From contig JAISUH010000003.1 of the NCBI GenBank assembly GCA_031272205.1, forward strand, positions 23,928 to 87,927: DNA of 64,000 nucleotides, in the 5' to 3' direction. A program made the position numbers and the translations under genes. Positions 25,151-50,298 of this stretch are shown here, piece after piece; position 1 is the stretch's first letter; the number at the start of each line of letters is the position of its first letter. The notes under the pieces were generated by a model. That model ran no database searches, was not told the origin of the DNA, and was given only the letters and a program-made list of their open reading frames with translations. Source of the stretch: Dysgonamonadaceae bacterium. Its GTDB lineage: Bacteria; Bacteroidota; Bacteroidia; Bacteroidales; Dysgonomonadaceae.

Positions 25151-25163
25151 TCAATAATTTAAT

Positions 25164-25171
25164 TATCTTTG
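25164..25171 (+). promoter_or_regulatory. -7 box TATCTTTG upstream of the second skp-like gene
   Basis: TAnnTTTG match 47 nt upstream of the ATG at 25218. Confidence 0.35.
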
Positions 25172-25217
25172 TAGCCGCTAACAGGCGAATTTTAAATCAA
25201 TAACACTATAAATCATT

Positions 25218-25724
25218 ATGTTGAAGAAATTATTTATTCTGCTTATCGCTTTGGCCCCTTTGGCTGCGATAGCCCAAGACGGAAAAGTGGCATACCTCAA
25301 CTCGCAGGAAATTTTCAACGCTATGCCGGAATTGGCCGATATTGAAAAACAATTGACCACCAAACAGGAAGAAATCTCTAAAACCGGACAGGCTATTATC
25401 GACGAGTTCAACAAAAAAAATGAAGAATTTGAAAAAGTAGCCGCTACAGCTTCCGAAACGGTAAAACAAGACCAACAGAAGCAATTGGCTCAATTGCAGG
25501 AAAGATATCAGTCGTTTTTGCAATACAGTCAAAAAGAGATGGAAGAATTGCGGATGAAGCTGCTGCAACCGGTTTATCAGAAAATCCAGACAGCGATTAA
25601 AACCGTAGGCGACGAACAAAAATTCTCCTACATTTTGGACTTGGCTTCACAATCGATTGTGTATTACAGCCCCACAGCAGTGGATGCCACTCCGCTGGTG
25701 AAAACGAAATTGAACCTGAAATAA
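25218..25724 (+). CDS. OmpH/Skp family periplasmic chaperone (second copy)
   Basis: Signal peptide plus coiled-coil region, 168 aa. Confidence 0.85.
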   Translation: MLKKLFILLIALAPLAAIAQDGKVAYLNSQEIFNAMPELADIEKQLTTKQEEISKTGQAIIDEFNKKNEEFEKVAATASETVKQDQQKQLAQLQERYQSFLQYSQKEMEELRMKLLQPVYQKIQTAIKTVGDEQKFSYILDLASQSIVYYSPTAVDATPLVKTKLNLK

Positions 25725-30632: not shown

Positions 30633-30656
30633 ATCTTTATCAATTAATCAGTTAAA

Positions 30657-32102: not shown

Positions 32103-32103
32103 T

Positions 32104-33420: not shown

Positions 33421-33435
33421 GTTGCGGATTTTAGA

Positions 33436-35214: not shown

Positions 35215-35245
35215 GATTTTTCCGTATTATGATATTATAACTCAT

Positions 35246-38200: not shown

Positions 38201-38287
38201 TACTCTCCCCTTAACCGAGATTTGCGCCTGAGCCATGACGGCCGACACGAGCAACCCGCATATCAAAAAAATTAATCTGGTTTTCAT
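35246..38287 (-). CDS. SusC/RagA family TonB-dependent outer membrane transporter
   Basis: Carboxypeptidase-regulatory-like N-terminal domain (ISVKGRVTDESGASLPGVTIVLKGT), a plug (VVVGYGQQRKE), and a C-terminal aromatic residue (..INISF). The start is set at MKTRLIFLI. Confidence 0.93.
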   Translation of the reverse strand: MKTRLIFLICGLLVSAVMAQAQISVKGRVTDESGASLPGVTIVLKGTNQGSTSDASGDFNFTVPNESSVLIFSFVGFNSKEIVIGNRRTLTVVLTESKTELGEMVVVGYGQQRKESVVAALTSISAEGLRQTPASNIGIALAGRMPGLTVLQRSGVPGGESMEFYIRGRSTVNGQQPLLMVDGVERDFNALDPREIETITILKDASATAVYGVRGANGVIMVTTRRGKSGKPVIDVTLEHTQQSPTRLPQMVSAYDYALLRNQVETQNGRQPIYSDYALERYRLGDSPELYPVRNFIDEFTKDNFPMEKANVNVSGGTDRMRYFTTVGYLYQEGLFPTEKFTEYDYDPKSKANRVNFRSNFDINLNDNLNMFLNISGFMQKKNDPVIVPFNPDYLSDYNAYSILIGSLLQTPNLYHNDLTPDGEVLSNSLKGGNVNNVPYGMLNRTGFRNTQTTAITTTLGVEQKLDFITKGLSIKAVASYDATSLNVQIRQRSFQLYEAMEDSSAPDGVSYITVGTQTNTTLSDSQQQSFNNLFNIDASINYARAFGLHNVTAMLLFNRYQRTINIQLPYNYIGFVGRATYGYANKYLGELNFGYNGSEQFAPGHKMGFFPSLSLGWVASEENFFQDVLPWMSFAKLRASYGRVGNDQMNGTRFAFLTLWSGSYESQIGNNNLVWEMADKYNIGLETRLFNSFNFSADLFYERRNNILIPATGLVPTGVFGTGGVYVSGILPKINAGEIENKGFELTLGYQKQLNNNFYLNAQANTAFNRNKVLYVSEVLLPESYAYRLRSTGYRLGQPFGLETAGFFNTEQELLDWYDQSGIGATPKLGDLKYKDKNGDGIITEEDQVPIGDPEVPEWTFGAAVSLQYKNFDFSMMWQGVAGRSYYLTGQRIWETYNFNEWHKEAWSQERLDAGLPITYPRLEPGSNASKQGSDFWLRDGSYVRLKNMELGYTLPQRWSEKIGSSAVRFYLNGLNLLTFDRYPVKYQDPEQNNELLYPVFKAYNAGINISF

Positions 38288-38327
38288 AGTACAAATTGAT
38301 TTGTTTTTCATGAACAAATGATCGATC

Positions 38328-40196
38328 TTATAACTCATATTGATAACTCAATCGACCCATAGGCATAACGCTTCCCGACTTGTAGGTATTCATAATATCG
38401 GAAATTCCCGTAACGCCCATGGCTACCTTGAAATAGAGTTTACCGGAGCTACCCAATCCGACGGCGCTGCGCGGCACCGCCAATTGGATAATGTTTTCGT
38501 CTTGCCTGAATGTTGCTTTTCCCGCGTCGGTAACGGAAGTGAAACTGTTGCCGAATTTACCGATAGCGGTTTCTCCGTTCGAAATGCTGCGCCCGATCAC
38601 GTATTCGTAGCTTTCCCATCCTTTCGTTGCAGGGTCGCCCGTGCCGATAAATACGTTCAACCAGTTGTCTTCGCCGTTAAATTCGGTGAATTTTTCCTTG
38701 CCTCGAATGTAGAAATAGATGTTTTGCGCATCGTGCGCTACCCTGATTTCTATCAGCTTGTTGGCAGGGGCCGCCTGAGTATAGCGTACCGTTTGGGAAC
38801 CTCCGAAAGCGTCGCGGGCAATGAATTTCTCATCGGTGTTGCGAATGACATATTGCACATCGTTCCATTGCGATGCGGCGACTGCAAGATCGATGGTCTT
38901 GACCGGATTAGGGGTCGCAGACCCATTTATTCCCTTGTAACGGCGAATGTTGCGGATCAGTTGGAGGTAATAGGCATCCTGATAACCGCCGACCATCGGC
39001 TCAATGTCGCGGGAATACTCTTTGCTGGCGGCGTCGCACAGCATGTATTCGCCGTCGTAGGGCTGTTTGTAGGCAATCCATTCGTTCCAGCCGCCAACGG
39101 AAACCACGGGGGGGGCAATTTCGACCACGCGATCCCATTGTGCCTGAAAATACGGGCCTTTGTCCACATCGGCAGACACATTTTGCTTGCTTGTTACGTT
39201 CCAGCCGCGTCCCCAGTTTATCCAGTTCGGGCGCGAGAGTGAAAAGGACATGGGCACCTTTGGGTGGCTGGCCACGGTTACATTCATCACGCCCGACGCG
39301 GTATGCAAGGGCTGGGGAAAGGACCATTCCACCCACGGAAACCCGTTTGGGAAGACGTTATCGGAAGGCCATTGCGGTTTCAGGAAATGGAAGAAATCGA
39401 GTATGTCGCTGCTAAGCGTGCCGGGCACATAGCTGTTGTCGCCGCGCGATTTAGCCTCCGCCAAATCATCGGCCGCATTGGTATAGGCGATAATCATCGG
39501 TTTTCCGTCCACACAATACCATGTGTCGGGGTATCTGCCCGGCTGGTACAGGGCGGCATAGATCTCCTTCACGGTTTGGAAGGAACGCGAATGGGTGTAA
39601 AATACAACTTTGGGCGGGTTCCATCCGTTTTTCTGCATCTCGTCGATGACCGCCAAAACTTTCATGAACACATTGCTGTAAATCAATGCATTGGTGGTAT
39701 CGAAATAAATAAAATCGACTCCGGCCATGGTAATCATTTGCATTTGCTTGCGGATCACCCACTCATCATCCGAATTGTAATAACCCCACAAGGGTTCACC
39801 CCAATAATGGGCTTGTCCGTTAGGGCTGATAGTAGCATCGTAGGAGTTGAAATCGGTCAGAATTTTAATACCGTTAGGCAAGGCCGCTATTTTGGTTGCA
39901 TCGTAGATGCCTGTGGAATAAGGCTGACCAATCCACGGCCAGAAAAACATACCGACAATGCGGTCTTTTTTAAACGCCGAAACGCTACCAAAACTGCGGC
40001 CGAAATGGTCAACACCCACAAGATTGAAACTGTTATACTTTGCTCCGTCAACGGGAGTGTCGCCGGCGTTGTTGTTCCCCGTATCCGTTTCTTCTTTTTT
40101 CGGAGGCTCAGGCGTGAGCAGGTGCGATTTCGAACACGCAGAGCAGCTGCTTATCGCCATAGTTACAAACAAAAAAACCATCCATCTATTCTTCAT
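38328..40196 (-). CDS. Lipoprotein, putative TIM-barrel glycoside hydrolase of uncertain family (GH99-like/DUF5010-like)
   Basis: Lipobox AISSCSACSK. GEPLWGYYNSDDEWVIRKQMQMITMAGVDFIYFDTTN resembles the PxxGxYxSxDxxVIxxH motif of the GH99/WbsX-type folds. The family assignment is an inference. Confidence 0.5.
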   Translation of the reverse strand: MKNRWMVFLFVTMAISSCSACSKSHLLTPEPPKKEETDTGNNNAGDTPVDGAKYNSFNLVGVDHFGRSFGSVSAFKKDRIVGMFFWPWIGQPYSTGIYDATKIAALPNGIKILTDFNSYDATISPNGQAHYWGEPLWGYYNSDDEWVIRKQMQMITMAGVDFIYFDTTNALIYSNVFMKVLAVIDEMQKNGWNPPKVVFYTHSRSFQTVKEIYAALYQPGRYPDTWYCVDGKPMIIAYTNAADDLAEAKSRGDNSYVPGTLSSDILDFFHFLKPQWPSDNVFPNGFPWVEWSFPQPLHTASGVMNVTVASHPKVPMSFSLSRPNWINWGRGWNVTSKQNVSADVDKGPYFQAQWDRVVEIAPPVVSVGGWNEWIAYKQPYDGEYMLCDAASKEYSRDIEPMVGGYQDAYYLQLIRNIRRYKGINGSATPNPVKTIDLAVAASQWNDVQYVIRNTDEKFIARDAFGGSQTVRYTQAAPANKLIEIRVAHDAQNIYFYIRGKEKFTEFNGEDNWLNVFIGTGDPATKGWESYEYVIGRSISNGETAIGKFGNSFTSVTDAGKATFRQDENIIQLAVPRSAVGLGSSGKLYFKVAMGVTGISDIMNTYKSGSVMPMGRLSYQYEL

Positions 40197-40214
40197 TGTT
40201 ATTTAATTTATAGG

Positions 40215-42902
40215 TTAAATTTTCGTTGTAAATTGATAAATACCCGAACCGACTTCCATTGCAACAACACCGTTTTCTTCGTTCAACAGTTTGATTTCTC
40301 TTATTTTAGAAATATTCCTGCCACTTTCCGTTATCGTTTTTGCCGATTTTGCCGGCACATAAACCGTGGCGATAGTGTTGTCAGGGATGGTTATGTTCAT
40401 GGTCAATATTCCATTTTTTTTACTCCATCCGCTTTTTATCAAGCCTTTAACGGTATCCAATTCGCCTTCGGCCTGATCCAAATCGTTAAAAATATAGGGA
40501 CGGATGACGAATTGTTCAAACCCCGGATGACGAACATCGGGTCTGATGCCGGCCACATATTTGTAGAACCACGAGCCGACGGAGCCCATCATCGGGTGGT
40601 TGTGCGAGTTCATCCCGTCGCCGGTAGTATATTCCCAGCGTTCAAAGAGTGTGGTAGCGCCTTTCGACAGCATAAAGCCCCAACTGGGATAGGTCGTTTG
40701 CGCGGCAATTTTGTAGGCCGTTTCGTGGTATCCGTGCTCTGTGAGCATTTCCAACAAGTATTTGGTACAGAGGTTGCCGGTTGTGAGATGATAACCGTGC
40801 TGTTTTACATTCTCTGCAAGATTGGCGGCTACACGGGCTACATTTTTTTCGCTCACTAAACCCATGTAAAGCGCAAAAGCGTTGGAAGCCTGATTGTTGG
40901 AAGCATATCCTCCGGCCTGTTCGTCCCAGTATTCGCGATTGAAAGCCTCGCCGGTTTTTTCGGCCATTTCCCTGTATTTCACAACATCAACCTTGTTACC
41001 GGTTATTTCAGCCATCTCGGAAAGGAGTGTTGCGCAGTAATACAAATAACCGGTCGAAATCATTTTTCCGGGTGTGTCGCGTGAAATGGGGCCGCCACCC
41101 AGTCCAAATTCCACGGGCGGACACCAGTCGCCGTAATAGCTGTAATCGACAATACCATTATCGGTGCGCGAATAGAGGTAGTCCGTCCAGGCTTTCATAC
41201 CTTCGTAGTGCTCGGCGATGATGCGGCGGTCGCCGTAAAACTCGTAACATTTCCAAGCCATTAGCAGGTAGCTGGCGCAAACCGGGTCGGCAGGCCGTGT
41301 TCCAAAACGGAAAGGAGCCACGCAGGTAATACGGCCTTCTTCGTCTTGCGTATCGGCTACATCGTCTATAAATTTGGCATAAAAACGCGACATGTTGAAA
41401 TTATATACTGCCTGTTCAATCCTCACTGTCAAGTCGTTGAGCCATCCCATGCGTTCGTCGCGCTGCGGGCAATCAGTGGGTACGCTGTGCAGGTTACTTG
41501 CCTCGGTATTGAACACCATGCGATGAATGTCGTTGAGCAAGGGGTTGCTGCACGAAAATCGACCTGTTTGCGCCACGGCCGAACGCACTACATGTATAGT
41601 AATGTCTCCTTTTTTGGGTTTATAGGGAAAGCCATCCACCTGTACGTAACGAAAACCGTGGTAGGTAAATGCCGGATGCCAGGTTTCCACTCCTTTACCG
41701 CTTAAAATATAAGTGTCTGTCACTCGTGCGTTGCGGAGGTTTTCCTGATTCACCAAACCGCTCTCATAACAGGTTTCGGCAAAGCGAAGGGTTATTTTTG
41801 TGCCTTCTTTGCCCTGCACTCTCAGCTCGGACCAACCGGCGAGATTACGTCCGGCATCTACCACATAAACACCCGGTTGCGGCTCAGCGATGCTTGCCGG
41901 TACAATGGTATCGACAATTTGTATCGGCTCAACATTTGAAGCAACCATATTGCTGCCCGGATCAACCGTATTGTAGGCGAAAGCCCATTCCTTGTCCATG
42001 ACGGGGGGCAAAGTGTCGGTGCCGTTCAGTTTAGCGGTGTTCAGCCGCGCGTCATAACATTCACCATCGAAAACAGTAGAATAGACTGTCGGGCCGGTTG
42101 TTACATGCCGGAAAGCATCGGAAGAAAGTTGCAATCGATTACCATCGGTTTCTTCAACTTCCATTTGTATGCGCAGGGAAGGCAGACCGTACCAGCCGGG
42201 AGCAACGCTGGCAAGGATGGTATTTACTTTTTCCGAAAAGAAATCCGTAATATCGTAAGTTGTATAGTAAATGCGTTTGTCGTAAGTGCTTTGCGCGGGT
42301 TCGAGAACATTTTGCCCGACTTTTTTACCGTTGATGTGCAATTCGTAGTATCCTAATCCGGATATATACATGCGAGCCTGTTTCAACGGCTTGTCTTTGT
42401 GGAAGATACTTTTATAGTATAACACCCGTCCGGGCATGCCGGCGGCGTAGGTTATCCAACCGGTGAGCCAGTCCCGCGGGTTGAGCAGCCCCATTTCGAA
42501 AATAGCCGGATGCGACCATTCGCTTTTAGTATTGTTGTTGAGTTCTGTTTGCACTTTCCAGAAATAACGGCTGCGGCTGGTCAACTGCTGCCCTGCATAT
42601 TCTACAATAGAAGCCGATGATTTTATTTTGCCGCTATCCCACACATCGGCGCTGTCAGCAGCTAAGTTTTCCTCGGACGTAGCCACTAAAATGCGGTAAG
42701 ACTGTTGCATTACGCCGCGCTTTCCGCTTTCGATGCGCCAACTCAGCCGCGGGGACTGAACGTCTATCCCAATGGGGTTAGCGGCGTATTCACAACGCAG
42801 ATCAACAATTTGAGCCGTTCTATTTTCTAACGAAAACGAAAGATTCGTTCCCAACAAACAGCATAATAAACAACTGATGATTTTTCTTTTCAACACATTC
42901 AT
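40215..42902 (-). CDS. Alpha-L-rhamnosidase, GH78
   Basis: 895 aa. The N-terminus LRCEYAANPIGIDVQSPRLSWRI...QQSYRILVA is the typical GH78 opening, followed by a six-hairpin catalytic region. Confidence 0.88.
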   Translation of the reverse strand: MNVLKRKIISCLLCCLLGTNLSFSLENRTAQIVDLRCEYAANPIGIDVQSPRLSWRIESGKRGVMQQSYRILVATSEENLAADSADVWDSGKIKSSASIVEYAGQQLTSRSRYFWKVQTELNNNTKSEWSHPAIFEMGLLNPRDWLTGWITYAAGMPGRVLYYKSIFHKDKPLKQARMYISGLGYYELHINGKKVGQNVLEPAQSTYDKRIYYTTYDITDFFSEKVNTILASVAPGWYGLPSLRIQMEVEETDGNRLQLSSDAFRHVTTGPTVYSTVFDGECYDARLNTAKLNGTDTLPPVMDKEWAFAYNTVDPGSNMVASNVEPIQIVDTIVPASIAEPQPGVYVVDAGRNLAGWSELRVQGKEGTKITLRFAETCYESGLVNQENLRNARVTDTYILSGKGVETWHPAFTYHGFRYVQVDGFPYKPKKGDITIHVVRSAVAQTGRFSCSNPLLNDIHRMVFNTEASNLHSVPTDCPQRDERMGWLNDLTVRIEQAVYNFNMSRFYAKFIDDVADTQDEEGRITCVAPFRFGTRPADPVCASYLLMAWKCYEFYGDRRIIAEHYEGMKAWTDYLYSRTDNGIVDYSYYGDWCPPVEFGLGGGPISRDTPGKMISTGYLYYCATLLSEMAEITGNKVDVVKYREMAEKTGEAFNREYWDEQAGGYASNNQASNAFALYMGLVSEKNVARVAANLAENVKQHGYHLTTGNLCTKYLLEMLTEHGYHETAYKIAAQTTYPSWGFMLSKGATTLFERWEYTTGDGMNSHNHPMMGSVGSWFYKYVAGIRPDVRHPGFEQFVIRPYIFNDLDQAEGELDTVKGLIKSGWSKKNGILTMNITIPDNTIATVYVPAKSAKTITESGRNISKIREIKLLNEENGVVAMEVGSGIYQFTTKI

Positions 42903-43052
42903 ACGAATCGGTATTTATTTGTTACAAAATAAGGAGATAAACTTTAAATTCGTTTGATGATTTGTCCCAATTTTTTGTATTTTAATTCCAATTTACCGCG
43001 GTGTTTTGCATTTTCCGTCCAAATAGTTGTAAAAATCATTCAAAATCGTTTT

Positions 43053-43060
43053 TACATTTG
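43053..43060 (+). promoter_or_regulatory. -7 box TACATTTG upstream of the HTCS gene
   Basis: 46 nt upstream of the ATG at 43106 and inside the longer ORF alternative, which supports the shorter start. Confidence 0.45.
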
Positions 43061-43105
43061 TTCACTGACGATTTTTTTTCTATTTTAGGGTCTTTTCCGT
43101 ATGGT

Positions 43106-46100
43106 ATGAAAAAAATATTAGTCCCCTTCTTGGCATTGATTGCTTACCTGTGTTCCTGTGAAAGAGACAAGACATCCGGTATCGCTGAAACTCCACGAGA
43201 GCAAAAAGTGTCGTATCTGAATATCCAATCTTTTTGCCAAGATTCGCTGGGATACGTATGGATCGCTACCCTTCACGGGTTAGACCGCTACAACGGATAC
43301 GAATTTACCCAATACTTCCACAATGCAGCCGATTCGTCGTCGATAAACAACGATATGGTTTTTTCATTATACTTGGATTCGTCACAGCGTTTATGGGTGG
43401 GGACGCTATCGGGCGCTAACCGTTACGACTTCAAAAGCAATCGGTTTGTCCGCTACAATAATATTGATAATTATGCTTCAAATGTTTATTCGTTTTTTGA
43501 AGATTGTTCCAAAAATATCTGGGTGGCCACACACAGCGGGCCGGGATTGATTGACTCTGTGAAGCGAAAAGTGATATTTCCCTCAAAGGACAGGTGTATT
43601 GTTCGTTCCTTTTGGGAAGATAATTTCCGTCGCCTGTGGATGGGTACTAACCAAGGGCTTGCCGAGCGGCAAAACGATTCGTTGTGGAATTATTATCCGC
43701 TACCGGACAATCGACAGGTTACTTCGTGCGTTTATATCGATCCCGGCGGTATGTGGTGGGCAGGCACCAATGCCGGCTTGGTGTGTTTCGACCCCCGATC
43801 GCGTACTTTTAAAAAACTCCCGTCAGCCTTGGAATGTCCCGAACTGAGCCAATCGCAAATCAACTTCATTCAGGAAACCAAGCAGTTGAAGCTGTTGATC
43901 GGGACCGAAACACAAGGTCTTTTTCAGTACGATATTCTGACGCAAACTTTACAACAGAATGAACCATGGCGCATCAATTATTTCGATTCCAAAGAATTGC
44001 TTGCCTGCTATGTGGATAGGCAGGAGAATGTCTGGATGGGGTCTTACGACAAAGGTTTTACGGTATGGAACAAATCTTTGGAATATTTTAATGACGAACG
44101 CCCGTTGGGGAATATGGTCAAAGACAAGTTTGTTACCCGTATTGCCGAAGACCGGTACGGCAACTTGTGGATCGCCACCCGCTATCACGGTCTTTTTCAT
44201 TATGCCAAATCGGGTAAAATTACCGTATATAATGCCCAAAACTCCGATTTATTTAACGGAAACACCAAACAAATTGAAGAACTCTTTATCGATTCCAAAA
44301 ACAGAATATGGATTGGTCTTGCCGAACAACTCATCGTTGGTTCAATTTCAGCCGACGGGCGTATCCATCTGCTTGCAAAAAAACCGATAGAACAAGTACG
44401 AACAATGAAGGAAGACCCGCGGGGAAATCTGTGGATTGGATCTTGGTACGGATTGTTTAAAATGGAAAACCTTGACCGGGTCAAAACCATTTGCTCCGGC
44501 AATATTCCGGATCTATGTATCTTAGATTCAGGAGATCTGTTGTTCTCGGCGTATGATAACGGCCTTTTCCGATTGGCGGAAAACGATTCGGTAGCGCAAA
44601 AAATAACGCCGTCGGCGGAGGGTATGGCTGTTGCTCAACACTGCATAACGCTCTTTGAAGATTCGCAACAGCGGGTGTGGATGGGCAGTTACGGTTACGG
44701 GATGTTGTGCAGGACGGGCAACGACTATCGTGTTTTTACCAAAAAGGACGGCTTACCCAACAACAATGTGCTGTGTTTCGAGGAGGATCGGCAAGGCAAT
44801 CTATGGATGAGTACTTCTAATGGCCTGTCGAAACTGAATACGACCGACAGTTCCTTTACCAATTTTTACAGCAGCGACGGCACTTTGGGGAATCAATATC
44901 ACGAAAAGGGGGGGTTGAAACACTCTGACGGGCGGATTTTTTTTACAGGGAATCACGGTCTTACCTTTTTTAATCCCTTAGCTGTTTTACCCGAAAAAGG
45001 CCGTCCGGTAGTACACTTGGAAGACCTGAAAATACTGGGCAGAAGCGTCCAGCCTGAAGCCGACGATTTGGTTCTGCCGATAGCCATTGCGTATATCCGC
45101 AACATTACCCTCAGCCACAAACAGTCCAATTTCTCCATCGATTATGCCGGAATCGATTTTATAGCGCCCGATAAATTGACCTACGCCTATAAAATGGAGG
45201 GTTTCGACGAAAATTGGAATAATGTGGGAAACTTCCGCCGCGCTACTTATTCCAACTTGCCTGCCGGAAAATATACTTTCTTGGTCAAAGCCATTAATGG
45301 AGATGGGGTAGAAAGTGCTCAACCGGCTGCTGTTCAGATCACCATTAAACCGGCGCCATGGTTTTCGTGGTGGGCTTGGACATTGTATATCACAGCGCTG
45401 TTAATCAGCTCTTTTTTTCTGTCCCGATTGATTATAAAAGTAAATATCAACAAACATCTGTTGGAAATCGAATCCAAAGAAAAAGAACGGGAACACGAAA
45501 TATCGGAAATGAAAATGAAATTTTTCACCAACATATCGCACGAACTGAGGACTCCTCTAACTTTAATTTCGGCGCCATTGGAACAATTATCATCAGTCGG
45601 CGGCTTAAACGAAGCGGGTATGCGGATTTTGGATACAGCCTCCCGAAATGTGCAAAGAATGCTTCGCCTTATCAGTCAACTCCTCGATTTTAATAAGATG
45701 GAAAACGGAATATTGGAGTTGAAAGTACAACACGAAAACAGCATTCAGCTTATCCGGAGCATCTTGGAGGTGTATGTATCCTCTATCGAAAAAAAACGGA
45801 TAAACTTTAAGTTTTGCCCTCACAAAGAAAATGTTGTTTTGTGGATGGATGTGGACAAATTCGAAAAAATTCTCCACAATTTATTGTCAAACGCCCTGAA
45901 ACATACTCCGGAAGGGGGAGACATATCGGTAACAGTTAATGAAATAAGTTCCTTTGAGGCCGATGCTCAATACCAATTCACAGACAAAACGGGATTGAAT
46001 GAGCGCTATATGGAAGTAACTGTCGAAAATACGGGCGCCAGTATCCCCGAAAATAAACTTGGCGAATTGTTTCAGCGTTACCACCAGATTGAAGGCCTTT

Positions 46101-47113
46101 CGGGACTGAATCTCGACTATGGCGGCAGCGGAATAGGGCTGCATTATACAAAAACCTTAGTAGAAACGCACAAAGGCTGTATTTGTGCAAAACCCAAACA
46201 GGGTGGAGGGATGGTCTTCTCTTTTATCCTTCCGGTTGAAGACGTGTATGACGACACCGAAAAAAGAAATGTTCCCGAAGAAATAGTGTTTGAAAAACAA
46301 TACGAACTTCCCCCCGACGATAACCCGAAAACGCCCAAATATTGTTCCATCCTGATTGTGGAAGATAATATCGAACTTTTGGGATTTATCAGGGATTTGC
46401 TGCACAGCCATTATGAACTGTTTGAAGCGATGGACGGCGATAAGGCATGGGCCTTGGTACAGGACAAACAACCCGATTTGATTCTGAGCGACGTGCTTAT
46501 ACCGGGCATGTCGGGCTACGAACTCTGTGCCAATGTGAAAAAACATCCCGATTTCAGCCATATCCCGGTGATACTTCTCACGGCCAAAACTACCTTGCCC
46601 GACCAACTAAAAGGGCTTGAAGAAGGCGCTGACGCTTACATCTGCAAACCCTTCAACGTCGATTATTTGCTGCTGACAATCAAAAATCTATTCTTGACTC
46701 GCGACAGGCTCCGTCAATGGTATCTGACCCCCAAATCGAAAACTCAAGATGAAAAATCGATTTCGGTTTCATTGAGCATCCACGATGAGAAAATGATGAA
46801 CAAATTGACCCTCTTATTGGAAAAAGAACTGTCGAATCCTGACTTAAATGTGGATTATCTCGGCCGCGACTTAGGGTTTAGCCGTACCAGTTTCTACCGT
46901 AAAATGAAGGGATTGATGAATTTGTCGCCCAACGAATTTCTGATAAACTATCGCCTGAGAAAAGCCGCCGAAATGTTGCAGGACGAAAATTTGTCGCTTT
47001 CCGAAATATCCGACAAAACCGGTTTCAGTTCCTATTCTTATTTTTCAAAATCATTTAAAAAATATTTTGGCGCTACGCCAAAAGATTATCGAAAAACAAA
47101 AACAGGTAAATAA
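43106..47113 (+). CDS. Hybrid two-component system sensor kinase/response regulator with AraC-type HTH (HTCS)
   Basis: Periplasmic propeller repeats and a Y_Y_Y region, then H-box FTNISHELRTPLT, G-box GSGIGLHYTK, receiver ILIVEDN...DLILSDVLIPGMSG, and an AraC HTH tail. Confidence 0.93.
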   Translation: MKKILVPFLALIAYLCSCERDKTSGIAETPREQKVSYLNIQSFCQDSLGYVWIATLHGLDRYNGYEFTQYFHNAADSSSINNDMVFSLYLDSSQRLWVGTLSGANRYDFKSNRFVRYNNIDNYASNVYSFFEDCSKNIWVATHSGPGLIDSVKRKVIFPSKDRCIVRSFWEDNFRRLWMGTNQGLAERQNDSLWNYYPLPDNRQVTSCVYIDPGGMWWAGTNAGLVCFDPRSRTFKKLPSALECPELSQSQINFIQETKQLKLLIGTETQGLFQYDILTQTLQQNEPWRINYFDSKELLACYVDRQENVWMGSYDKGFTVWNKSLEYFNDERPLGNMVKDKFVTRIAEDRYGNLWIATRYHGLFHYAKSGKITVYNAQNSDLFNGNTKQIEELFIDSKNRIWIGLAEQLIVGSISADGRIHLLAKKPIEQVRTMKEDPRGNLWIGSWYGLFKMENLDRVKTICSGNIPDLCILDSGDLLFSAYDNGLFRLAENDSVAQKITPSAEGMAVAQHCITLFEDSQQRVWMGSYGYGMLCRTGNDYRVFTKKDGLPNNNVLCFEEDRQGNLWMSTSNGLSKLNTTDSSFTNFYSSDGTLGNQYHEKGGLKHSDGRIFFTGNHGLTFFNPLAVLPEKGRPVVHLEDLKILGRSVQPEADDLVLPIAIAYIRNITLSHKQSNFSIDYAGIDFIAPDKLTYAYKMEGFDENWNNVGNFRRATYSNLPAGKYTFLVKAINGDGVESAQPAAVQITIKPAPWFSWWAWTLYITALLISSFFLSRLIIKVNINKHLLEIESKEKEREHEISEMKMKFFTNISHELRTPLTLISAPLEQLSSVGGLNEAGMRILDTASRNVQRMLRLISQLLDFNKMENGILELKVQHENSIQLIRSILEVYVSSIEKKRINFKFCPHKENVVLWMDVDKFEKILHNLLSNALKHTPEGGDISVTVNEISSFEADAQYQFTDKTGLNERYMEVTVENTGASIPENKLGELFQRYHQIEGLSGLNLDYGGSGIGLHYTKTLVETHKGCICAKPKQGGGMVFSFILPVEDVYDDTEKRNVPEEIVFEKQYELPPDDNPKTPKYCSILIVEDNIELLGFIRDLLHSHYELFEAMDGDKAWALVQDKQPDLILSDVLIPGMSGYELCANVKKHPDFSHIPVILLTAKTTLPDQLKGLEEGADAYICKPFNVDYLLLTIKNLFLTRDRLRQWYLTPKSKTQDEKSISVSLSIHDEKMMNKLTLLLEKELSNPDLNVDYLGRDLGFSRTSFYRKMKGLMNLSPNEFLINYRLRKAAEMLQDENLSLSEISDKTGFSSYSYFSKSFKKYFGATPKDYRKTKTGK

Positions 47114-47144: not shown

Positions 47145-48260
47145 TTACAATAATTTATATACTCCGCCGGGCAACGACTGCACCACGTTTTTCATCTCCA
47201 ATTCGAGCAGGGTGAAAAAGAGTTCCGAAACAGGCACGTTGAGTTCTATGCCCAGCATGTTTACCTGAACACCGTCGTTGTGTTTGGCCAAAGCATTGAA
47301 TATCCGTTCTTCTTCTTCCGAAAGATTCAGAAAGAGTTCTTTTTGTTTCGGCTGGGGACGGGAAGACGAATCCCAATTCATCAGCGCGATAAATTCGTTG
47401 GCATCCTGAAGCAACACGGCTTTGTTGTTCGCGATTAAATTGTTGCAGCCTTTCGATGCGTTGTCGGTTGTCCTTCCCGGAACGGCAAAAACCTCGCGAT
47501 AATAGGAATTGGCAATATCGGCCGTGATGAGCGATCCGCCTCTCTCTCCCGATTCCATCACAATCACGGCATCGGCCATTCCGGCCACAATGCGGTTGCG
47601 TTTCACGAAATTGAACTTGTCGGGGGTGGTTTTGCTGGGAAATTCGGTGATAAGCGCCCCTTTTTCGAGCATTTCGATAGCTGTTTTCCGGTGCATTTCG
47701 GGATAAATGCGATCCAAGCCGTGTCCTAAGACGGCCACGGTAGAGAGTCCCGATTGAAGCGCCGCCCGATGCGCACAAACATCAATCCCGTAAGCTAAAC
47801 CGCTTATCACGAGCAATTCGGGGAATTTATCGGCAAGAGTGTCGATCAATGTCTCACAAAATTTTTGCCCGTAGGGCGTTGCGTTTCGCGTGCCGACGAC
47901 ACTGATAATCTTCTGACGGTTGAAGTCGGCATCGCCTTTGGCATACAGTAGAACGGGCGCATCAATGCAATTGTTCAGCCGCGAGGGATAATCGGGATTG
48001 GTAAAGAAAAACATGCGCAGGTGGTTTTTCTCGACGAACTCCAATTCGCGTTCGGCTTTCCGCATCACTTCCGGATTGCGAATCTCGGCAACCAATCGGG
48101 CGGAAATACGCGGTATTTTTTCGAGCACTCTTGCTTTTTCCCGAAAAACGGCTTCTTCGTCGCCTGCGGCCTGCACGAGGTTCCGCGCGTGCATTACGCC
48201 TATGCCGGGAATCATAGTCAGGGCTATTTGGCAGAGGGTTTTTGTCGCTTGTTGAGGCAT
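47145..48260 (-). CDS. dprA: DNA processing protein DprA
   Basis: Rossmann-like core VVGTRNATPYG...GLAYGIDVCAHRAAL...GSLITA, 371 aa. Confidence 0.9.
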   Translation of the reverse strand: MPQQATKTLCQIALTMIPGIGVMHARNLVQAAGDEEAVFREKARVLEKIPRISARLVAEIRNPEVMRKAERELEFVEKNHLRMFFFTNPDYPSRLNNCIDAPVLLYAKGDADFNRQKIISVVGTRNATPYGQKFCETLIDTLADKFPELLVISGLAYGIDVCAHRAALQSGLSTVAVLGHGLDRIYPEMHRKTAIEMLEKGALITEFPSKTTPDKFNFVKRNRIVAGMADAVIVMESGERGGSLITADIANSYYREVFAVPGRTTDNASKGCNNLIANNKAVLLQDANEFIALMNWDSSSRPQPKQKELFLNLSEEEERIFNALAKHNDGVQVNMLGIELNVPVSELFFTLLELEMKNVVQSLPGGVYKLL

Positions 48261-48316
48261 AAGTTTTTAAAATTGACAAATTTAAAATCCCGATTCTTCA
48301 TGAAAGCGGAACACTG

Positions 48317-48324
48317 CAAATATA
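48317..48324 (-). promoter_or_regulatory. -7 box TATATTTG upstream of dprA
   Basis: Reverse complement of CAAATATA, 57 nt upstream of the ATG. Confidence 0.4.
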
Positions 48325-48385
48325 GGAAAAAGTTTTCAGGGAAACGGTGTTTTGGGGGATGATTGTTTTTCTTTAGTTTTACCTT

Positions 48386-48422
48386 AAAAAGAGACGATTA
48401 TCTCCTGAGGACAATCGTCTCT
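48386..48422 (-). terminator. Terminator directly after the small peptide ORF
   Basis: On the minus strand: AGAGACGATT / AATCGTCTCT, a 10-bp stem with a 13-nt loop, followed by TTTT. It begins 13 nt after the TGA at 48436-48438. Confidence 0.65.
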
Positions 48423-48435
48423 GTAGTTTTTCTAA

Positions 48436-48600
48436 TCAACAAGGCGCAGCATAAGACGCTTTTTCAAATGGAATCCATAACACAAAAAATTTTTCTTGAC
48501 AAATCTTTATACCACCATAACATTCGGTACATTTTGTTGCATTTCCCCAAAATCTGCCACCTTGAATCGAGGACATCTTTTCAATACTCATTGTTTTCAT
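48436..48600 (-). CDS. 54-aa double-glycine-leader peptide, bacteriocin-like (absent from the ORF track because it is under 60 aa)
   Basis: Hand translation: MKTMSIEKMSSIQGG / RFWGNATKCTECYGGIKICQEKFFVLWIPFEKASYAAPC. It has an ATG start, a TGA stop, and a terminator 13 nt downstream. The leader fits the LSxxELxxIxGG pattern, and the core has four Cys. Confidence 0.6.
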   Translation of the reverse strand: MKTMSIEKMSSIQGGRFWGNATKCTECYGGIKICQEKFFVLWIPFEKASYAAPC

Positions 48601-48664
48601 ACTCTGAAAAAATTAAAAGTTAGACATAATATTAATAACTAAGAGCATACATAAACGTCTGCCC

Positions 48665-49561
48665 TTATTCCATAATTTGTAATCCCATTCGTATGTTCAT
48701 TTTTGCATTTTTGCCGTAAAAGTCTTTTATTGTGGTTGCCCATGCAGCATCCTCGTTTTCCATCTTTTTCCACTCAAAATCATTGGTAATCGTCCTGCTC
48801 CACGTCCGAGAAGAACTTTCGGCACCTGTAACATCTAATGCAGGGCTTATTAATAACCGAGGGTTTGAATTGTTTGGAGCAATAAAATCCACAACTATAA
48901 ATACACCTTTCTCCGGAAACAGCACTGGCTCAAGTAGTTTGATAACTTCTTTCCCCGAATAATTTTTTGCGGAATTATTGATAATTCGCCTTTCTATTAT
49001 AGATATGTTGCCAGGGGCACCGTCTTTGTCGGGTAGCCGCAAATCGAAACAGATATTGGATTTATGATAAAGAAATTCCTTACCCCCCTTTACATCGCTT
49101 AAAAATGAAATTATAGATACAATCCAAGGTGGTGAAACCCATGCACTATCATAAGGCATAAACAAAGCAAAATTGGTGTTGGGAGACGGAATCAACCCAT
49201 AATCTCCTTTTTTCTTTAAACAGCCAATTTCTCTTCGTTTGGAAGACTCGTTGGATACCACAACTTCCGGCAGCGTATTTGTTATTGGTGTCAGGATTAC
49301 CTTCTCATGGTCTTCAACTAATTGCATGTCTATCAATTTAGGGGCGTAGGCAATTTGTGAGATAAAAATATGCCTTACACTATCCGGAATAATGGCCACA
49401 CCTTGTTCGTCGGCATAAATTCCACCCTTCCCATCGATAAACTGTACAGTCGCAAATGACACAGCCTCCTGCGTAAGGTTATCAGTGATGAAGATGATTT
49501 TCTGTTGGCAGAAACAAGCAAAGGATAACGATAAAAATACAAGTGATAGAAAAAGTTTCAC
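48665..49561 (-). CDS. Secreted protein of unknown function with a carboxypeptidase-regulatory-like N-terminal domain
   Basis: GTG start, signal peptide MKLFLSLVFLSLSFACFCQQ, then KIIFITDNLTQEAVSFATVQFIDG. The coding sequence is AT-rich. Confidence 0.6.
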   Translation of the reverse strand: MKLFLSLVFLSLSFACFCQQKIIFITDNLTQEAVSFATVQFIDGKGGIYADEQGVAIIPDSVRHIFISQIAYAPKLIDMQLVEDHEKVILTPITNTLPEVVVSNESSKRREIGCLKKKGDYGLIPSPNTNFALFMPYDSAWVSPPWIVSIISFLSDVKGGKEFLYHKSNICFDLRLPDKDGAPGNISIIERRIINNSAKNYSGKEVIKLLEPVLFPEKGVFIVVDFIAPNNSNPRLLISPALDVTGAESSSRTWSRTITNDFEWKKMENEDAAWATTIKDFYGKNAKMNIRMGLQIME

Positions 49562-49836
49562 TTCCTGTTAGTTTTAAAACGTAAACTGAAAGACCACAGA
49601 GAAAATAATCCTTAATAATCATCCCGTCTCCTAAAATAATCGGGAGTAGTTTACAATCGATCGGAAAGGTTAAATCCAAACCACAATGTCCACTCATGAA
49701 GAAATCATCCGTAAAAATCCACTTAAACTAAACAAACAAGTTAACGGCATAAATAAAGAACTTTATGAATGATTCATAGAGTCTTGCGTGCGATGTTCCT
49801 TGAATTGGTTGACATTTTTCCGATAGTTTATTGCTA

Positions 49837-49844
49837 CAAATCTA
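49837..49844 (-). promoter_or_regulatory. -7 box TAGATTTG for the islet operon
   Basis: Reverse complement of CAAATCTA. A TTTG at 49868-49865 lies 20 nt upstream, consistent with -33 spacing. Confidence 0.45.
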
Positions 49845-49856
49845 CAAACAATTTCA

Positions 49857-49873
49857 CCCCCCCCCAAAAAAAA
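49857..49873. repeat. Homopolymer tract C9 followed by A8 (G9/T8 on the minus strand)
   Basis: Counted directly: cacccc|ccccc aaaaa|aaa. Confidence 0.95.
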
Positions 49874-49896
49874 TAGTTAAAAAACTCAAAACACTT

Positions 49897-50298
49897 CTAT
49901 ATATACTCCGCAAAGGCCTCATCGAAAACGGTCGGTTGCGAGAGTTTTCCGTTGATCAGGCAAACCACTTCGATGTTCCCTGTGGCGCACAACTTGCCGT
50001 CGGAAAGGCGGATAATCTCTTGATGAAACAGATAAGACAAGCGTTTACGTTCCATCGTGGCGATGGTGCATTTAAAAACATCCATGCCGTGAAGCGGAGA
50101 CTTGTAACGGATATCCACACGCGCCACCACCGCATCGATACCGTTTCGGTGCAGTTCGTTAAAATTCAAGCCCTGCCGCTCTAAAAATTCATGACGAGTA
50201 ACCTCGAAATAGTGTTGATAATTGGCGTTGTTGACATGTCCCTGCACGTCACATTCGTAATCGCGCACTTTTAGTTCGTATTCGAATACAGGTTTCAT
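49897..50298 (-). CDS. Acyl-CoA thioesterase, hotdog fold (YbgC/4HBT-like)
   Basis: YELKVRDYECDVQGHVNNANYQHYFE is the typical 4HBT N-terminus. 133 aa. Confidence 0.85.
   Translation of the reverse strand: MKPVFEYELKVRDYECDVQGHVNNANYQHYFEVTRHEFLERQGLNFNELHRNGIDAVVARVDIRYKSPLHGMDVFKCTIATMERKRLSYLFHQEIIRLSDGKLCATGNIEVVCLINGKLSQPTVFDEAFAEYI

What the first reader, a model, noticed from the sequence alone, without database searches (positions are those of the whole stretch)
48436..48600. Unannotated 54-aa double-glycine-leader, four-Cys peptide: a candidate bacteriocin (bacteroidetocin-like)
This ORF is on the minus strand and falls below the ORF-track size cut-off. I translated it base by base as MKTMSIEKMSSIQGG-RFWGNATKCTECYGGIKICQEKFFVLWIPFEKASYAAPC.

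- **Leader:** the first 15 residues fit the double-glycine leader pattern (LSxxELxxIxGG), with hydrophobic residues at -12, -7 and -4 and GG at -2/-1. Peptidase-domain (C39) ABC exporters cleave leaders of this type.
- **Core:** the 39-aa core opens with WGNATKC-TEC, which resembles a degenerate class IIa pediocin box (YGNGVxC...C). It has four Cys, enough for two disulfides.
- **Genetic context:** the TGA stop is followed 13 nt later by a 10-bp stem and a T-run. The upstream region is A/T-rich, as is usual for Bacteroidetes start sites.

Bacteroidetocins are a described family of GG-leader peptide toxins in Bacteroidota related to class IIa bacteriocins. Whether this peptide belongs to that family or is a new lineage cannot be decided here. 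No exporter, C39 peptidase or obvious immunity gene is adjacent, so it would be an orphan toxin gene or part of a split system.
Basis: partly seen in the sequence, partly recalled or inferred. Interest (0 to 1): 0.8.

Follow-up and report, generated by a model that had tools for sequence, protein, structure and literature searches.

The report
Bacteroidetocin-type toxin gene in decayed locus
The small gene is real and encodes an intact relative of the bacteroidetocins, known peptide toxins of Bacteroidota. It sits in the worn-down remains of a toxin locus that has lost its export genes and kept only the toxin gene and a conserved, uncharacterised partner protein.

Summary
The 54-aa ORF at 48436-48600(-) is exactly as described: a 15-aa GG leader, a 39-aa four-Cys core and a hairpin/T-run terminator.

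- **Not a chance ORF.** An exhaustive phmmer search finds 16 full-length small relatives. A profile built without any bacteroidetocin scores Bd-A at 42.9 bits and Bd-B at 33.2 bits; their mature cores alone score about 19 bits.
- **Orthologues.** Peptides 52-63% identical lie in complete loci ordered TM5 protein, ~295-aa protein ("P295"), peptide, thiol oxidoreductase, C39-ABC exporter. Substitutions against them are synonymous-biased.
- **The window locus is truncated.** TM5 is a fragmented pseudogene. The thiol oxidoreductase and exporter are absent from all 64 kb. Only P295 and the peptide gene are intact. The 1.55-kb low-GC cassette is missing from the two nearest genomes.
It has a signal peptide and a SusC-NTE-like domain. 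It is adjacent to the peptide gene in 26 of 28 metagenome loci and absent from the one Bd-B locus examined. It survives intact where the peptide gene has decayed or gone. This suggests immunity, but that is untested.
- **Pediocin box.** The resemblance is not supported.

Verdict: a new member of a known family. Production here needs an exporter in trans; otherwise the gene is a relic. Moderate interest.

The parts
48436..48600 (-). Bacteroidetocin-family prepeptide gene, 54 codons plus TGA. The leader MKTMSIEKMSSIQGG is 48556-48600. The 39-aa core RFWGNATKCTECYGGIKICQEKFFVLWIPFEKASYAAPC is 48439-48555.
   Evidence: ORF and translation. TIGR01847 16.1 bits vs cut-off 15.7. Family of 16 small relatives. 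Profile scores Bd-A 42.9 and Bd-B 33.2 bits. Orthologues in L051-L053 with pN<pS. IMG name 'bacteriocin-like protein'. AF2 core is three beta strands with pLDDT about 70-80.
48386..48422 (-). Intrinsic-terminator-like hairpin (arms 48410-48422 / 48390-48402) plus T-run. It closes the P295-peptide unit just upstream of the dprA promoter motif TATATTTG (48324..48317).
   Evidence: Fold: -19 kcal/mol, z -3.1. Inverted repeat I10. TAnnTTTG motif scan.
48665..49561 (-). P295: a 298-aa secreted protein (GTG start, N-terminal signal sequence). It has a CarboxypepD_reg/SusC-NTE-like beta-sandwich (about residues 20-90), a conserved L-P-E-V-V-V motif followed by a low-confidence linker (94-129), and an all-beta C-terminal domain of unknown fold. 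It is the conserved partner of this branch of bacteroidetocin-like peptides and a candidate immunity/resistance factor (inferred).
   Evidence: - Pfam CarbopepD_reg_2 is weak: 15.3 bits, below GA.
- AF2 mean pLDDT is 61.6.
- Foldseek matches the SusC NTE 9hfj at TMt 0.74.
- Profile vs PDB matches a TonB-linked receptor NTE at 6.7e-14, and BamP at 1.4e-5 over the N-terminal domain only.
- It is a full-length homologue of the neighbours of family peptides.
- It is adjacent in 26 of 28 metagenome loci.
- Intact orphan copies have pN well below pS.
49580..49781 (-). Pseudogene remnant of the bacteroidetocin-locus five-TM protein ('TM5'). Three collinear fragments lie in three frames with in-frame stops, about 200 nt in place of about 660 nt. 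It includes the conserved ...F(K/Q)WIFTD(D/E)FF motif.
   Evidence: tblastn of the intact L051 TM5: residues 16-43 match 49781-49698 with a stop (E 8e-6), residues 88-97 match 49686-49657, and residues 195-217 match 49648-49580. DNA homology to the L008 TM5 remnant is 73.5% over 68 nt, E 7e-5.
49837..49844 (-). The only Bacteroidetes-type -7 promoter motif (TAGATTTG) upstream of the cassette. It is the inferred promoter of a psiTM5-P295-peptide transcript. No such motif lies directly upstream of the peptide gene.
   Evidence: Motif scan of 48250-49950, minus strand. Consensus match only, no expression data.
48345..49896 (.). A ~1.55-kb low-GC cassette (psiTM5, P295, peptide gene, terminator) between the 4HBT thioesterase gene (49897-50298) and the dprA promoter. 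It is absent from the two nearest genomes, where the thioesterase gene abuts dprA.
   Evidence: Loci L002 (DprA 87% identical) and L003 (70%). GC is 0.35-0.40 in the cassette against 0.44-0.52 in the flanks. No convincing terminal repeats or target-site duplication.

Best explanation
**What it is.** 48436-48600(-) is an intact gene for a bacteroidetocin-family (proposed class IIf) bacteriocin precursor. It has a 15-aa double-glycine leader and a 39-aa basic/aromatic core.

**How the family works (established for Bd-A/B, inferred here).**
- A C39-peptidase ABC exporter cuts after GG and exports the peptide.
- A locus-encoded thioredoxin-fold oxidoreductase is thought to form the disulfides.
- A five-TM protein is needed for production.
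- The mature peptide kills other Bacteroidota by targeting surface loops of BamA.

**Disulfides (inferred).** Cys1 and Cys3 are lost together across relatives, which suggests pairs Cys1-Cys3 and Cys2-Cys4.

**State of this locus (shown).** The ancestral order was TM5, P295, peptide, thiol oxidoreductase, C39-ABC. It has decayed to a TM5 pseudogene, an intact P295 and an intact peptide gene, followed by a terminator. P295 and the peptide gene are probably co-transcribed from a promoter near 49840. The cassette cannot process or export its product by itself. Either the peptide is serviced in trans by an exporter elsewhere in the genome (my estimate about 0.35-0.4), or it is a not-yet-mutated relic.

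**P295 (inferred).** P295 is the component that selection keeps. It is most likely a periplasmic immunity/resistance factor against this toxin type (my estimate about 0.3-0.4).
For: **Identity**
- ORF, leader and terminator.
- 16 full-length small relatives.
- The profile scores Bd-A and Bd-B at 42.9 and 33.2 bits; their cores alone score about 19 bits.
- A profile search retrieves the Bd-A and Bd-B clusters together with this family.

**Machinery in relatives**
- L011, L013, L051-L053 and many metagenome loci carry homologues of the Bd-B TM5 and thiol oxidoreductase plus a C39-ABC exporter next to the peptide.

**Constraint**
- Window vs L052 gives pN 0.171 and pS 0.61. L052 vs L051 gives dN/dS 0.08.
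- All family-invariant residues (M1, G15, G30, C54, plus G14 and G19) are present.

**Decay**
- TM5 pseudogene.
- No ABC transporter or thiol oxidoreductase homologue anywhere in the 64 kb.
- The cassette is absent from L002 and L003 and is low in GC.
- Close P295 relatives form a graded series from complete loci to P295 alone.

**Cysteines**
- Patterns are CCCC in 22 sequences and -C-C in 7. Among sequences aligned to the C-terminal Cys, Cys3 is never lost without Cys1, and only P0021 lacks Cys1 alone; it has an extra C-terminal Cys.

**Biology of Bd-A/B**
- PMC6671954 and PMC8546649.
Against: - No expression, processing or activity data exist for this peptide or any member of its CxxC subgroup.
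- The exporter, thiol oxidoreductase and an intact TM5 are missing locally. For Bd-B, deleting TM5 or the oxidoreductase attenuates toxin activity.
- The other two exporter-less relatives examined show decay. L008-L010 carry a peptide pseudogene. P0048 has GG changed to GW.
- dN/dS rests on only about 30 synonymous sites, and the window-L051 value is 0.51. It cannot show that constraint continued after the locus was truncated.
- The only other copy of the window allele is 100% identical (L001), so it says nothing about recent selection.
- The second Cys sits at a different position from Bd-A/B, and the core is 39 rather than 42 aa. The target could therefore differ.
Confidence: 0.85

Rival explanations
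1. Functional split system. The peptide is made, cleaved after GG and exported by a C39-peptidase ABC transporter, with a thiol oxidoreductase and TM5, encoded at another bacteroidetocin-type locus in the same genome. The window cassette would be an extra toxin-plus-partner module, like satellite bacteriocin genes in Gram-positive bacteria.
For: - The peptide gene is fully intact with every conserved residue, and has its own terminator.
- Substitutions against orthologues are synonymous-biased.
- Leaders are very uniform across the family (MKKLxxxQMxxxxGG), so a heterologous exporter could plausibly accept it.
- Contigs can carry more than one C39-ABC gene, as in L017. Several loci carry two or three different GG-leader peptides beside one exporter, as in L038, L022 and L041.
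Against: - No exporter is present in the 64 kb.
- The TM5 gene next door has been allowed to decay, which argues against ongoing selection for production at this locus.
Confidence: 0.37
2. Relic toxin gene beside an orphan immunity gene. Selection now acts only on P295, which protects against bacteroidetocin-like toxins made by neighbours. The peptide ORF is simply not yet disrupted and yields no exported product.
For: - Close P295 homologues show a decay series: complete locus (L051), frameshifted TM5 (L052/53), window (psiTM5, intact peptide), L008-10 (psiTM5, psi-peptide), then P295 alone (L007, L050, L054/55).
- Orphan P295 genes stay full length with pN 0.19-0.27 against pS 0.70-0.85.
- Bd-A/B loci have no immunity function and their producers self-intoxicate. 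The one Bd-B locus examined here lacks P295.
Against: - An immunity function for P295 is untested.
- A 162-nt ORF that keeps all conserved positions is weak evidence either way.
- P295 could instead be an export or maturation accessory working with loci elsewhere in the genome.
Confidence: 0.45
3. The peptide is a class IIa (pediocin-like) bacteriocin relative, with WGNATKC as a degenerate YGNGVxC box. It would act on a membrane transporter receptor rather than on BamA.
For: It shares generic features: a GG leader, small size, an N-terminal Cys pair and a G-N-x-x-x-C string. Pfam Bacteriocin_IIc scores 13 bits, on the leader only.
Against: - Pfam at E <= 10 returns only Bacteriocin_IIc, below its 27.1-bit cut-off and covering the leader. 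No class IIa model is listed.
- The conserved family motif is K/R-F-[WF]-G. The N of 'GN' is not conserved: relatives have S, T, A, G, K, P or W at that position.
- The describers of bacteroidetocins state that YGNGVxC is lacking and that Bacteroides lack the mannose-PTS receptor.
- The AF2 core is three beta strands with no C-terminal helix.
- No Foldseek match reaches E <= 0.001, and no bacteriocin structure appears among the listed hits.
Confidence: 0.03
4. The peptide is a secreted GG-leader signalling peptide (pheromone) rather than a toxin.
For: GG-leader peptides exported by C39-ABC transporters include quorum-sensing pheromones in Gram-positive bacteria (general knowledge). No activity data exist for this subgroup.
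Against: - It is homologous over leader and core to Bd-A/B, whose synthetic mature peptides kill Bacteroidales.
- No histidine kinase/response regulator pair is linked to the peptide gene in the family loci whose called genes were listed.
- The hybrid two-component gene at 43001-47113 belongs to the neighbouring polysaccharide-utilisation cluster.
Confidence: 0.04
5. Chance ORF in an A/T-rich intergenic region.
For: The ORF is short (54 codons) and lies in a low-GC region.
Against: Full-length relatives are found at E down to 5e-10 in 1.84 billion sequences. Orthologues with synonymous-biased divergence lie in syntenic loci. It has a curated-threshold GG-signal hit and a terminator.
Confidence: 0.01

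Closest known systems
Bacteroidetocins A and B (Bd-A, Bd-B; proposed class IIf bacteriocins; Coyne et al. 2019, PMC6671954; BamA target, Matano et al. 2021, PMC8546649)
   Same: - A 15-aa MKK...GG leader with Lys/Arg at +1.
- The K/R-F-W-G-S/N N-terminus, with the first Cys at mature residue 9.
- The central C-x3-[FY][FY]-x-[FL]-[WG]-[IV] block and a Cys at or next to the C-terminus.
- Four Cys in total.
- Alignment is nearly gap-free and the profile score is significant.
- Orthologous loci contain homologues of the Bd-B TM5 protein and thiol oxidoreductase and a C39-ABC exporter.
   Different: - The core is 39 aa rather than 42 aa.
- The second Cys lies 3 residues after Cys1 (CxxC), not 2 residues before Cys3 (CxC).
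- The locus type carries an extra ~295-aa secreted protein, which the one Bd-B locus examined lacks.
- In this window TM5 is a pseudogene and the oxidoreductase and exporter are missing.
- No activity, cleavage or target data exist.
Class IIa (pediocin-like) bacteriocins of Gram-positive bacteria
   Same: Ribosomal peptides with a double-glycine leader, processed by a C39-ABC exporter. They are small, cationic and disulfide-bonded.
   Different: - There is no YGNGVxC box, and the Pfam scan lists no class IIa family.
- The leader is 15 aa rather than 18-24 aa.
- The predicted core is all-beta.
- The host is Gram-negative and the known target of the family is BamA.
- No dedicated class IIa-type immunity gene is present.
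Class II microcins of Proteobacteria (GG-leader peptides exported by a C39-ABC exporter with MFP and TolC)
   Same: Gram-negative GG-leader peptide toxins that depend on a peptidase-ABC exporter. Small, often unannotated genes.
   Different: No sequence similarity was detected in the family or profile searches. None of the examined family loci has an HlyD-type MFP or a TolC gene annotated next to the peptide. The phylum and accessory genes (TM5, thioredoxin-fold protein, P295) differ.
SusC/TonB-dependent-receptor N-terminal extension (NTE) domains and BamP of the Bacteroidota BAM complex (PMC12611786), as comparators for P295
   Same: - P295 has a signal peptide plus a CarboxypepD_reg-like beta-sandwich.
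- That domain matches the SusC NTE (Foldseek 9hfj, TMt 0.74; profile vs a TonB-linked receptor, 6.7e-14).
- It also matches the BamP N-terminal domain (9n2d_E, 1.4e-5; NF053692 up to 37 bits).
- The domain is followed by an L-x-E-V-V-V motif like that after the NTE of the TonB-linked receptor and by a flexible linker. This domain-linker-domain layout resembles BamP.
   Different: - There is no plug or barrel, so P295 is not a TonB-dependent receptor.
- The BamP model matches only profile positions 1-129 of 251, at 37 bits or less against a cut-off of 230.
- The C-terminal ~190-aa beta domain matches nothing.
- No evidence exists for BAM or TonB binding.
Orphan immunity genes of bacteriocin, colicin and T6SS systems (general concept)
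   Same: A gene tightly linked to a toxin gene persists intact and under purifying selection in genomes where the toxin and export genes have decayed or are absent.
   Different: An immunity function for P295 has not been shown. Known class II immunity proteins are small cytoplasmic or membrane proteins, not 295-aa secreted two-domain proteins.

Membership tests
Bacteroidetocins (class IIf) | Small ribosomal prepeptide with a 15-16-aa N-terminal leader ending in GG | tested here: met
   The leader MKTMSIEKMSSIQGG is 15 aa. TIGR01847 scores 16.1 bits against a cut-off of 15.7. The definition is taken from PMC6671954.
Bacteroidetocins (class IIf) | Detectable sequence homology of the full peptide and of the mature core to Bd-A/Bd-B | tested here: met
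   An HMM of the window peptide's family, with Bd sequences excluded, scores Bd-A 42.9 bits and Bd-B 33.2 bits. Cores alone score 19.5 and 19.2 bits, E about 5e-8 at Z = 1. A joint profile search retrieves both groups.
Bacteroidetocins (class IIf) | Mature peptide of about 35-53 aa with at least two, typically four, similarly placed Cys | tested here: met
   The core is 39 aa with four Cys. Cys1, Cys3 and Cys4 align with Bd-A/B and Cys2 is displaced. Size ranges come from PMC6671954 and PMC8546649.
Bacteroidetocins (class IIf) | Peptide gene flanked by a five-TM protein, (usually) a thiol oxidoreductase, and a C39-peptidase ABC transporter | tested here: not met
   In the window TM5 is a fragmented pseudogene. 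No thiol oxidoreductase or ABC homologue occurs anywhere in the 64 kb. The feature is met in the orthologous loci L051-L053, L011 and L013. The failure is therefore secondary loss, not a different system.
Bacteroidetocins (class IIf) | Leader removed after GG; mature peptide disulfide-bonded | not testable with these tools
   This needs LC-MS of the native product. Only covariation is available: Cys1 and Cys3 are lost together in 7 sequences.
Bacteroidetocins (class IIf) | Kills Bacteroidota; resistance maps to BamA surface loops | not testable with these tools
   No activity data exist for this peptide or its CxxC subgroup. The property is known for Bd-A/B/D (PMC8546649).
Class IIa pediocin-like bacteriocins | Conserved N-terminal YGNGVxC box and a match to a class IIa family model | tested here: not met
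   The sequence is R-F-W-G-N-A-T-K-C. The Pfam scan at E <= 10 lists only Bacteriocin_IIc, at 13 bits on the leader. The 'N' is not conserved among relatives.
GG-leader bacteriocin signal (NCBIfam TIGR01847) | Score at or above the curated cut-off | tested here: met
   16.1 bits against 15.7, E 0.012, covering residues 1-15. The margin is small.
BamP family (NF053692), for the partner protein P295 | Full-length match at or above the curated cut-off (230 bits) covering both domains and the interdomain loop | tested here: not met
   The window P295 has no hit. The best P295 relative scores 37.3 bits over profile positions 1-129 of 251. The PDB BamP chain matches only profile positions 1-110.
SusC/RagA TonB-dependent receptors, for P295 | NTE followed by plug and 22-strand barrel | tested here: not met
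   Only the NTE region matches (TIGR04056 at 36.5 bits or less against 368). No Plug domain is found. The protein is only 298 aa.

The most novel reading that the evidence does not exclude
P295 may be the missing self-protection determinant for BamA-targeting bacteroidetocin-type toxins. It would be a periplasmic two-domain protein that uses its SusC-NTE/BamP-like N-terminal domain and conserved linker to dock on the BAM complex (or on TonB) and blocks the toxin's effect.

This would explain three observations:
- P295 is encoded next to the toxin gene in almost every locus of this branch.
- The one Bd-B locus examined lacks it, and the literature reports that Bd-A/B producers self-intoxicate.
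- P295 outlives the toxin and export genes as an orphan.

On this reading the window cassette is a minimal toxin-plus-immunity pair caught midway through that decay.
Probability: 0.2. Interest if true: 0.7.

Novelty: new member of a known kind. Interest (0 to 1): 0.4.

Why it matters
**The peptide.** It extends the bacteroidetocin family to Dysgonomonadaceae and to a CxxC-type subgroup, and adds a candidate anti-Bacteroidota peptide. That is incremental, because the family, its leader, its export machinery and its BamA target are already described.

**What comparative context adds.**
1. A large environmental branch of these loci carries a fifth conserved gene, P295. I found no mention of it in the papers I read.
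2. P295 is the component retained when loci decay. This gives a concrete, testable candidate for how producers or bystanders resist a toxin aimed at an essential outer-membrane protein. That question is explicitly open for Bd-A/B, whose producers self-intoxicate (PMC8546649).
3. The coupled loss of Cys1 and Cys3 gives a prediction for the disulfide pairing.

**Annotation.** The gene has no NCBI-sourced entry in the protein collection, while IMG labels it 'bacteriocin-like'. The case also shows that an intact toxin ORF need not mean a working system.

Tried and rejected
- **Word-indexed homology search with the single peptide.** It found only an identical copy. The exhaustive phmmer search was needed.
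- **Metagenome locus search with peptide alignments A5 and A6.** I replaced it with a hand-built degenerate DNA pattern for M-K-x6-M-x4-GG-[KR]-F-[WF]-G. That pattern is biased to the Met(-7) subgroup and excludes Bd-A/B-type leaders.
- **Simple terminator scan.** It missed the hairpin. Folding recovered it.
- **Mobile-element signature at the cassette ends.** There are only short, weak repeats and no convincing target-site duplication or terminal inverted repeats. A T8G9 tract at the left edge and C5A4 at the right edge were noted but not interpretable.
- **P295 = bacteroidetocin 'TM protein'.** Rejected. The Bd-B TM protein is a separate ~220-aa five-TM family.
- **P295 = BamP.** Rejected as membership. 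Only the N-terminal domain matches, far below the cut-off.
- **Fold of the P295 C-terminal domain.** The AF2 model is too poor (pLDDT 61.6 from 11 close sequences) and Foldseek gives nothing credible beyond the NTE.
- **Foldseek of the peptide model.** No match reaches E <= 0.001.
- **Class IIa relationship.** Rejected.
- **Published sequence tables.** The supplement of PMC11195462 is not held. The Bd-A/B sequences came from the PMC6671954 supplement.
Full report
**Observation.** The minus-strand ORF at 48436-48600 exists. The leader has GG at -2/-1 and hydrophobic residues at -4, -7 and -12. NCBIfam's double-glycine bacteriocin signal model TIGR01847 scores 16.1 bits against a curated cut-off of 15.7. 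Pfam gives only a sub-threshold Bacteriocin_IIc hit on the leader. Thirteen nucleotides after the TGA stop there is a hairpin (48390-48422) followed by a T-run. It folds at -19 kcal/mol with z = -3.1.

**Annotation status.** The exact 54-aa product is held by JGI/IMG on the same 88,693-bp contig under the name 'bacteriocin-like protein'. No NCBI-sourced entry for it is in the collection, although the neighbouring 298-aa protein is there as MDR1742291.1. An identical copy occurs on a 1.6-kb Logan contig. The nearest genomes are Dysgonomonadaceae MAGs.

**Is it a real gene, and of what family?**
- The word-indexed search found only the identical copy.
- An exhaustive phmmer over 1.84 billion representatives found 16 small (53-66 aa) proteins aligned end to end, with E from 5e-10 to 7e-4.
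- Their alignment shows a uniform leader, MKKLxxxQMxxxxGG. The core reads K/R-F-[WF]-G-x4-C-xx-C-xx-G-xxx-C-xxx-[FY][FY]-x-[FL]-W-[IL]-x10-C.
- I recovered the Bd-A and Bd-B sequences from the supplement of Coyne et al. 2019. A profile built only from the window peptide's relatives scores Bd-A at 42.9 bits and Bd-B at 33.2 bits. The mature cores alone score 19.5 and 19.2 bits.
- The alignment is almost gap-free. Cys1, Cys3 and the terminal Cys coincide. The second Cys sits at CxxC here but two residues before Cys3 in Bd-A/B.
- A joint profile search retrieves the Bd-A and Bd-B clusters together with this group, and almost none carries a name.
- The peptide is therefore a member of the bacteroidetocin family, not a new lineage and not a class IIa relative. 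The Pfam scan lists no class IIa family. The Asn of 'WGN' is not conserved. The family's authors state that it lacks YGNGVxC.
- AlphaFold2 predicts a three-stranded beta core with pLDDT about 70-80. It has no significant PDB neighbour.

**Genomic context in the window.** No ORF of 120 aa or more in the 64 kb has ABC-transporter motifs. HMMs and tblastn for the C39-ABC exporter and the thiol oxidoreductase find nothing in the window.

The peptide gene lies 64 nt downstream of a 298-aa gene (48665-49561, 'P295'). In the two nearest genomes the 4HBT thioesterase gene abuts dprA. The ~1.55 kb holding P295 and the peptide gene is therefore a variable cassette. Its GC content is 0.35-0.40, against 0.44-0.52 in the flanks.

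Upstream of P295 lie three collinear fragments of the bacteroidetocin-locus five-TM protein, in three different frames and with in-frame stops (49781-49580). They include the conserved WIFTD(D/E)FF motif. This is a TM5 pseudogene. The only Bacteroidetes-type -7 promoter motif upstream of the cassette is at 49844-49837. P295 and the peptide gene are therefore probably one transcript ending at the hairpin. That is inference, not data.

**Context in relatives.**
- The one Bd-B locus examined (L017) is TM5, peptide, thioredoxin-fold protein, C39-ABC, as published.
- Loci of the window's subgroup carry an extra gene. A ~295-aa protein homologous over its full length to the window's P295 lies next to the peptide in L011, L013 and L014.
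- A degenerate-pattern scan of metagenomes gave 32 loci. Of the 28 with a family-scoring peptide, 26 have P295 directly adjacent. The two exceptions lack flank or are frameshifted.
- Typical orders are TM5-PEP-P295-TRX-ABC and PEP-P295-TM5-TRX-ABC.
- The pattern was restricted to Met(-7) leaders, so the figure applies to that branch only.

**A decay series.** The closest P295 homologues are 57-60% identical and span every stage.

| Loci | State |
|---|---|
| L051 | Intact TM5-P295-peptide-TRX-C39ABC, same gene order as the window |
| L052/L053 | Same order, TM5 frameshifted |
| Window | psiTM5, P295, intact peptide gene; no TRX or ABC |
| L008-L010 | psiTM5, P295, peptide remnant: start lost, ...KKIDVEKMVTIRGGKFFGSATSC then unrelated sequence |
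| L007, L050, L054/L055 | P295 alone |

- The orthologous peptides are 34/54 (L052) and 28/54 (L051) identical to the window's.
- Nei-Gojobori counts give pN 0.171 and pS 0.61 for window vs L052 (dN/dS about 0.15). Window vs L051 gives 0.51 and L052 vs L051 gives 0.08. These rest on only about 30 synonymous sites.
- Orphan P295 genes remain full length, with pN 0.19-0.27 against pS 0.70-0.85.

**What P295 is.**
- It has an N-terminal signal sequence. Most homologues have no Cys after it, so it is probably not a lipoprotein (sequences).
- It has a beta-sandwich that matches the N-terminal extension of SusC-type TonB-dependent receptors. Foldseek gives 9hfj at TMt 0.74, and the profile search gives 6.7e-14.
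- A conserved L-P-E-V-V-V motif follows, resembling the segment after the NTE in the TonB-linked receptor it matches. Then come a low-confidence linker and an all-beta C-terminal domain with no recognisable relative.
- It is not a TonB-dependent receptor, not BamP, and not the bacteroidetocin TM protein.

**Mechanism.**
- *Established for Bd-A/B, from PMC6671954 and PMC8546649.* A C39-ABC exporter removes the leader after GG. TM5 and a thiol oxidoreductase are needed for full activity. The mature peptide acts on BamA surface loops. Producers have no immunity and self-intoxicate.
- *Inferred for the window peptide by homology.* The same processing applies. The predicted disulfides are Cys24-Cys34 and Cys27-Cys54, because Cys1 and Cys3 are lost together in 7 relatives while Cys2 and Cys4 persist.
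- *Shown here.* The local machinery is gone.
- *The two live readings.* One is a toxin gene serviced in trans, about 0.37. The other is a relic beside a selectively retained P295, about 0.45. They differ only in whether an exporter exists elsewhere in the genome, which I could not test.
- *Why P295 looks like immunity.* It is tightly linked to the toxin gene, it is absent from the immunity-less Bd-B locus, and it survives as an orphan. Together these resemble an immunity or resistance gene more than an export factor. This is inference, at about 0.3-0.4.

**Verdict.** The peptide is a new member of a known family in a truncated locus, which is moderately interesting. The more novel lead is the conserved P295 partner and its orphan-retention pattern.

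Noticed in passing
window 21859-25724 (+): A BamA homologue (884 aa, POTRA repeats) is followed by two small ORFs. The first of these matches OmpH/Skp; the second was not scanned. BamA is the known target of bacteroidetocins, so this organism's own target gene lies about 24 kb from the toxin-like gene. I did not check whether its surface loop 3 carries the Asp linked to Bd-A sensitivity (PMC8546649).
   Followed up: partly
window 28968-47113: A polysaccharide-utilisation-type cluster: a SusC-like TonB receptor (35246-38338), SusD (33436-35214), an alpha-L-rhamnosidase (40215-42902) and a hybrid two-component regulator (43001-47113). It is unrelated to the finding.
   Followed up: partly
window ~49856-49872 and ~48346-48358: A T8G9 homopolymer tract lies just after the thioesterase stop at the left edge of the cassette. 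A C5A4 tract lies near the right edge; together they form a short imperfect inverted pair. There is no target-site duplication, and the significance is unknown.
   Followed up: no
L008:6916-7077 (also L009, L010): A peptide pseudogene lies downstream of an intact P295. The leader and first 10 core residues are recognisable (KKIDVEKMVTIRGGKFFGSATSC). The ATG is out of frame next to an A-run, and the rest of the core is replaced.
   Followed up: yes
L014-L016 (Lentimicrobiaceae, P0048): An exporter-less locus (422-aa CarbopepD_reg protein, TM5, peptide, P295). Its peptide has the GG cleavage site changed to GW and the conserved Gly changed to Trp, which suggests decay. A second, longer P295-like paralogue is present.
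   Followed up: partly
L022:247-438; L041:5909-6178 and 6736-6921: Extra GG-leader peptides with the same MKKLExxQMENLxGG leader but a different, Gly/Ala-rich hydrophobic core lie upstream of the bacteroidetocin-like gene. One exporter may serve several cargo types.
   Followed up: no
L038:5107-5551: Two tandem bacteroidetocin-like genes with different cores lie in one TM5-PEP-PEP-P295-TRX-ABC locus.
   Followed up: no
L017:1-4436: Upstream of the canonical Bd-B locus lies a second C39-ABC exporter, a radical-SAM enzyme and a 762-aa CarbopepD_reg plus OMP beta-barrel protein. This looks like a separate peptide-natural-product cluster.
   Followed up: no
L008:7181-10421: Immediately downstream of the decayed peptide gene are two ABC half-transporter-like genes (548 and 533 aa) with no C39 domain, followed by aspS. 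They are probably housekeeping genes and not the bacteriocin exporter.
   Followed up: no
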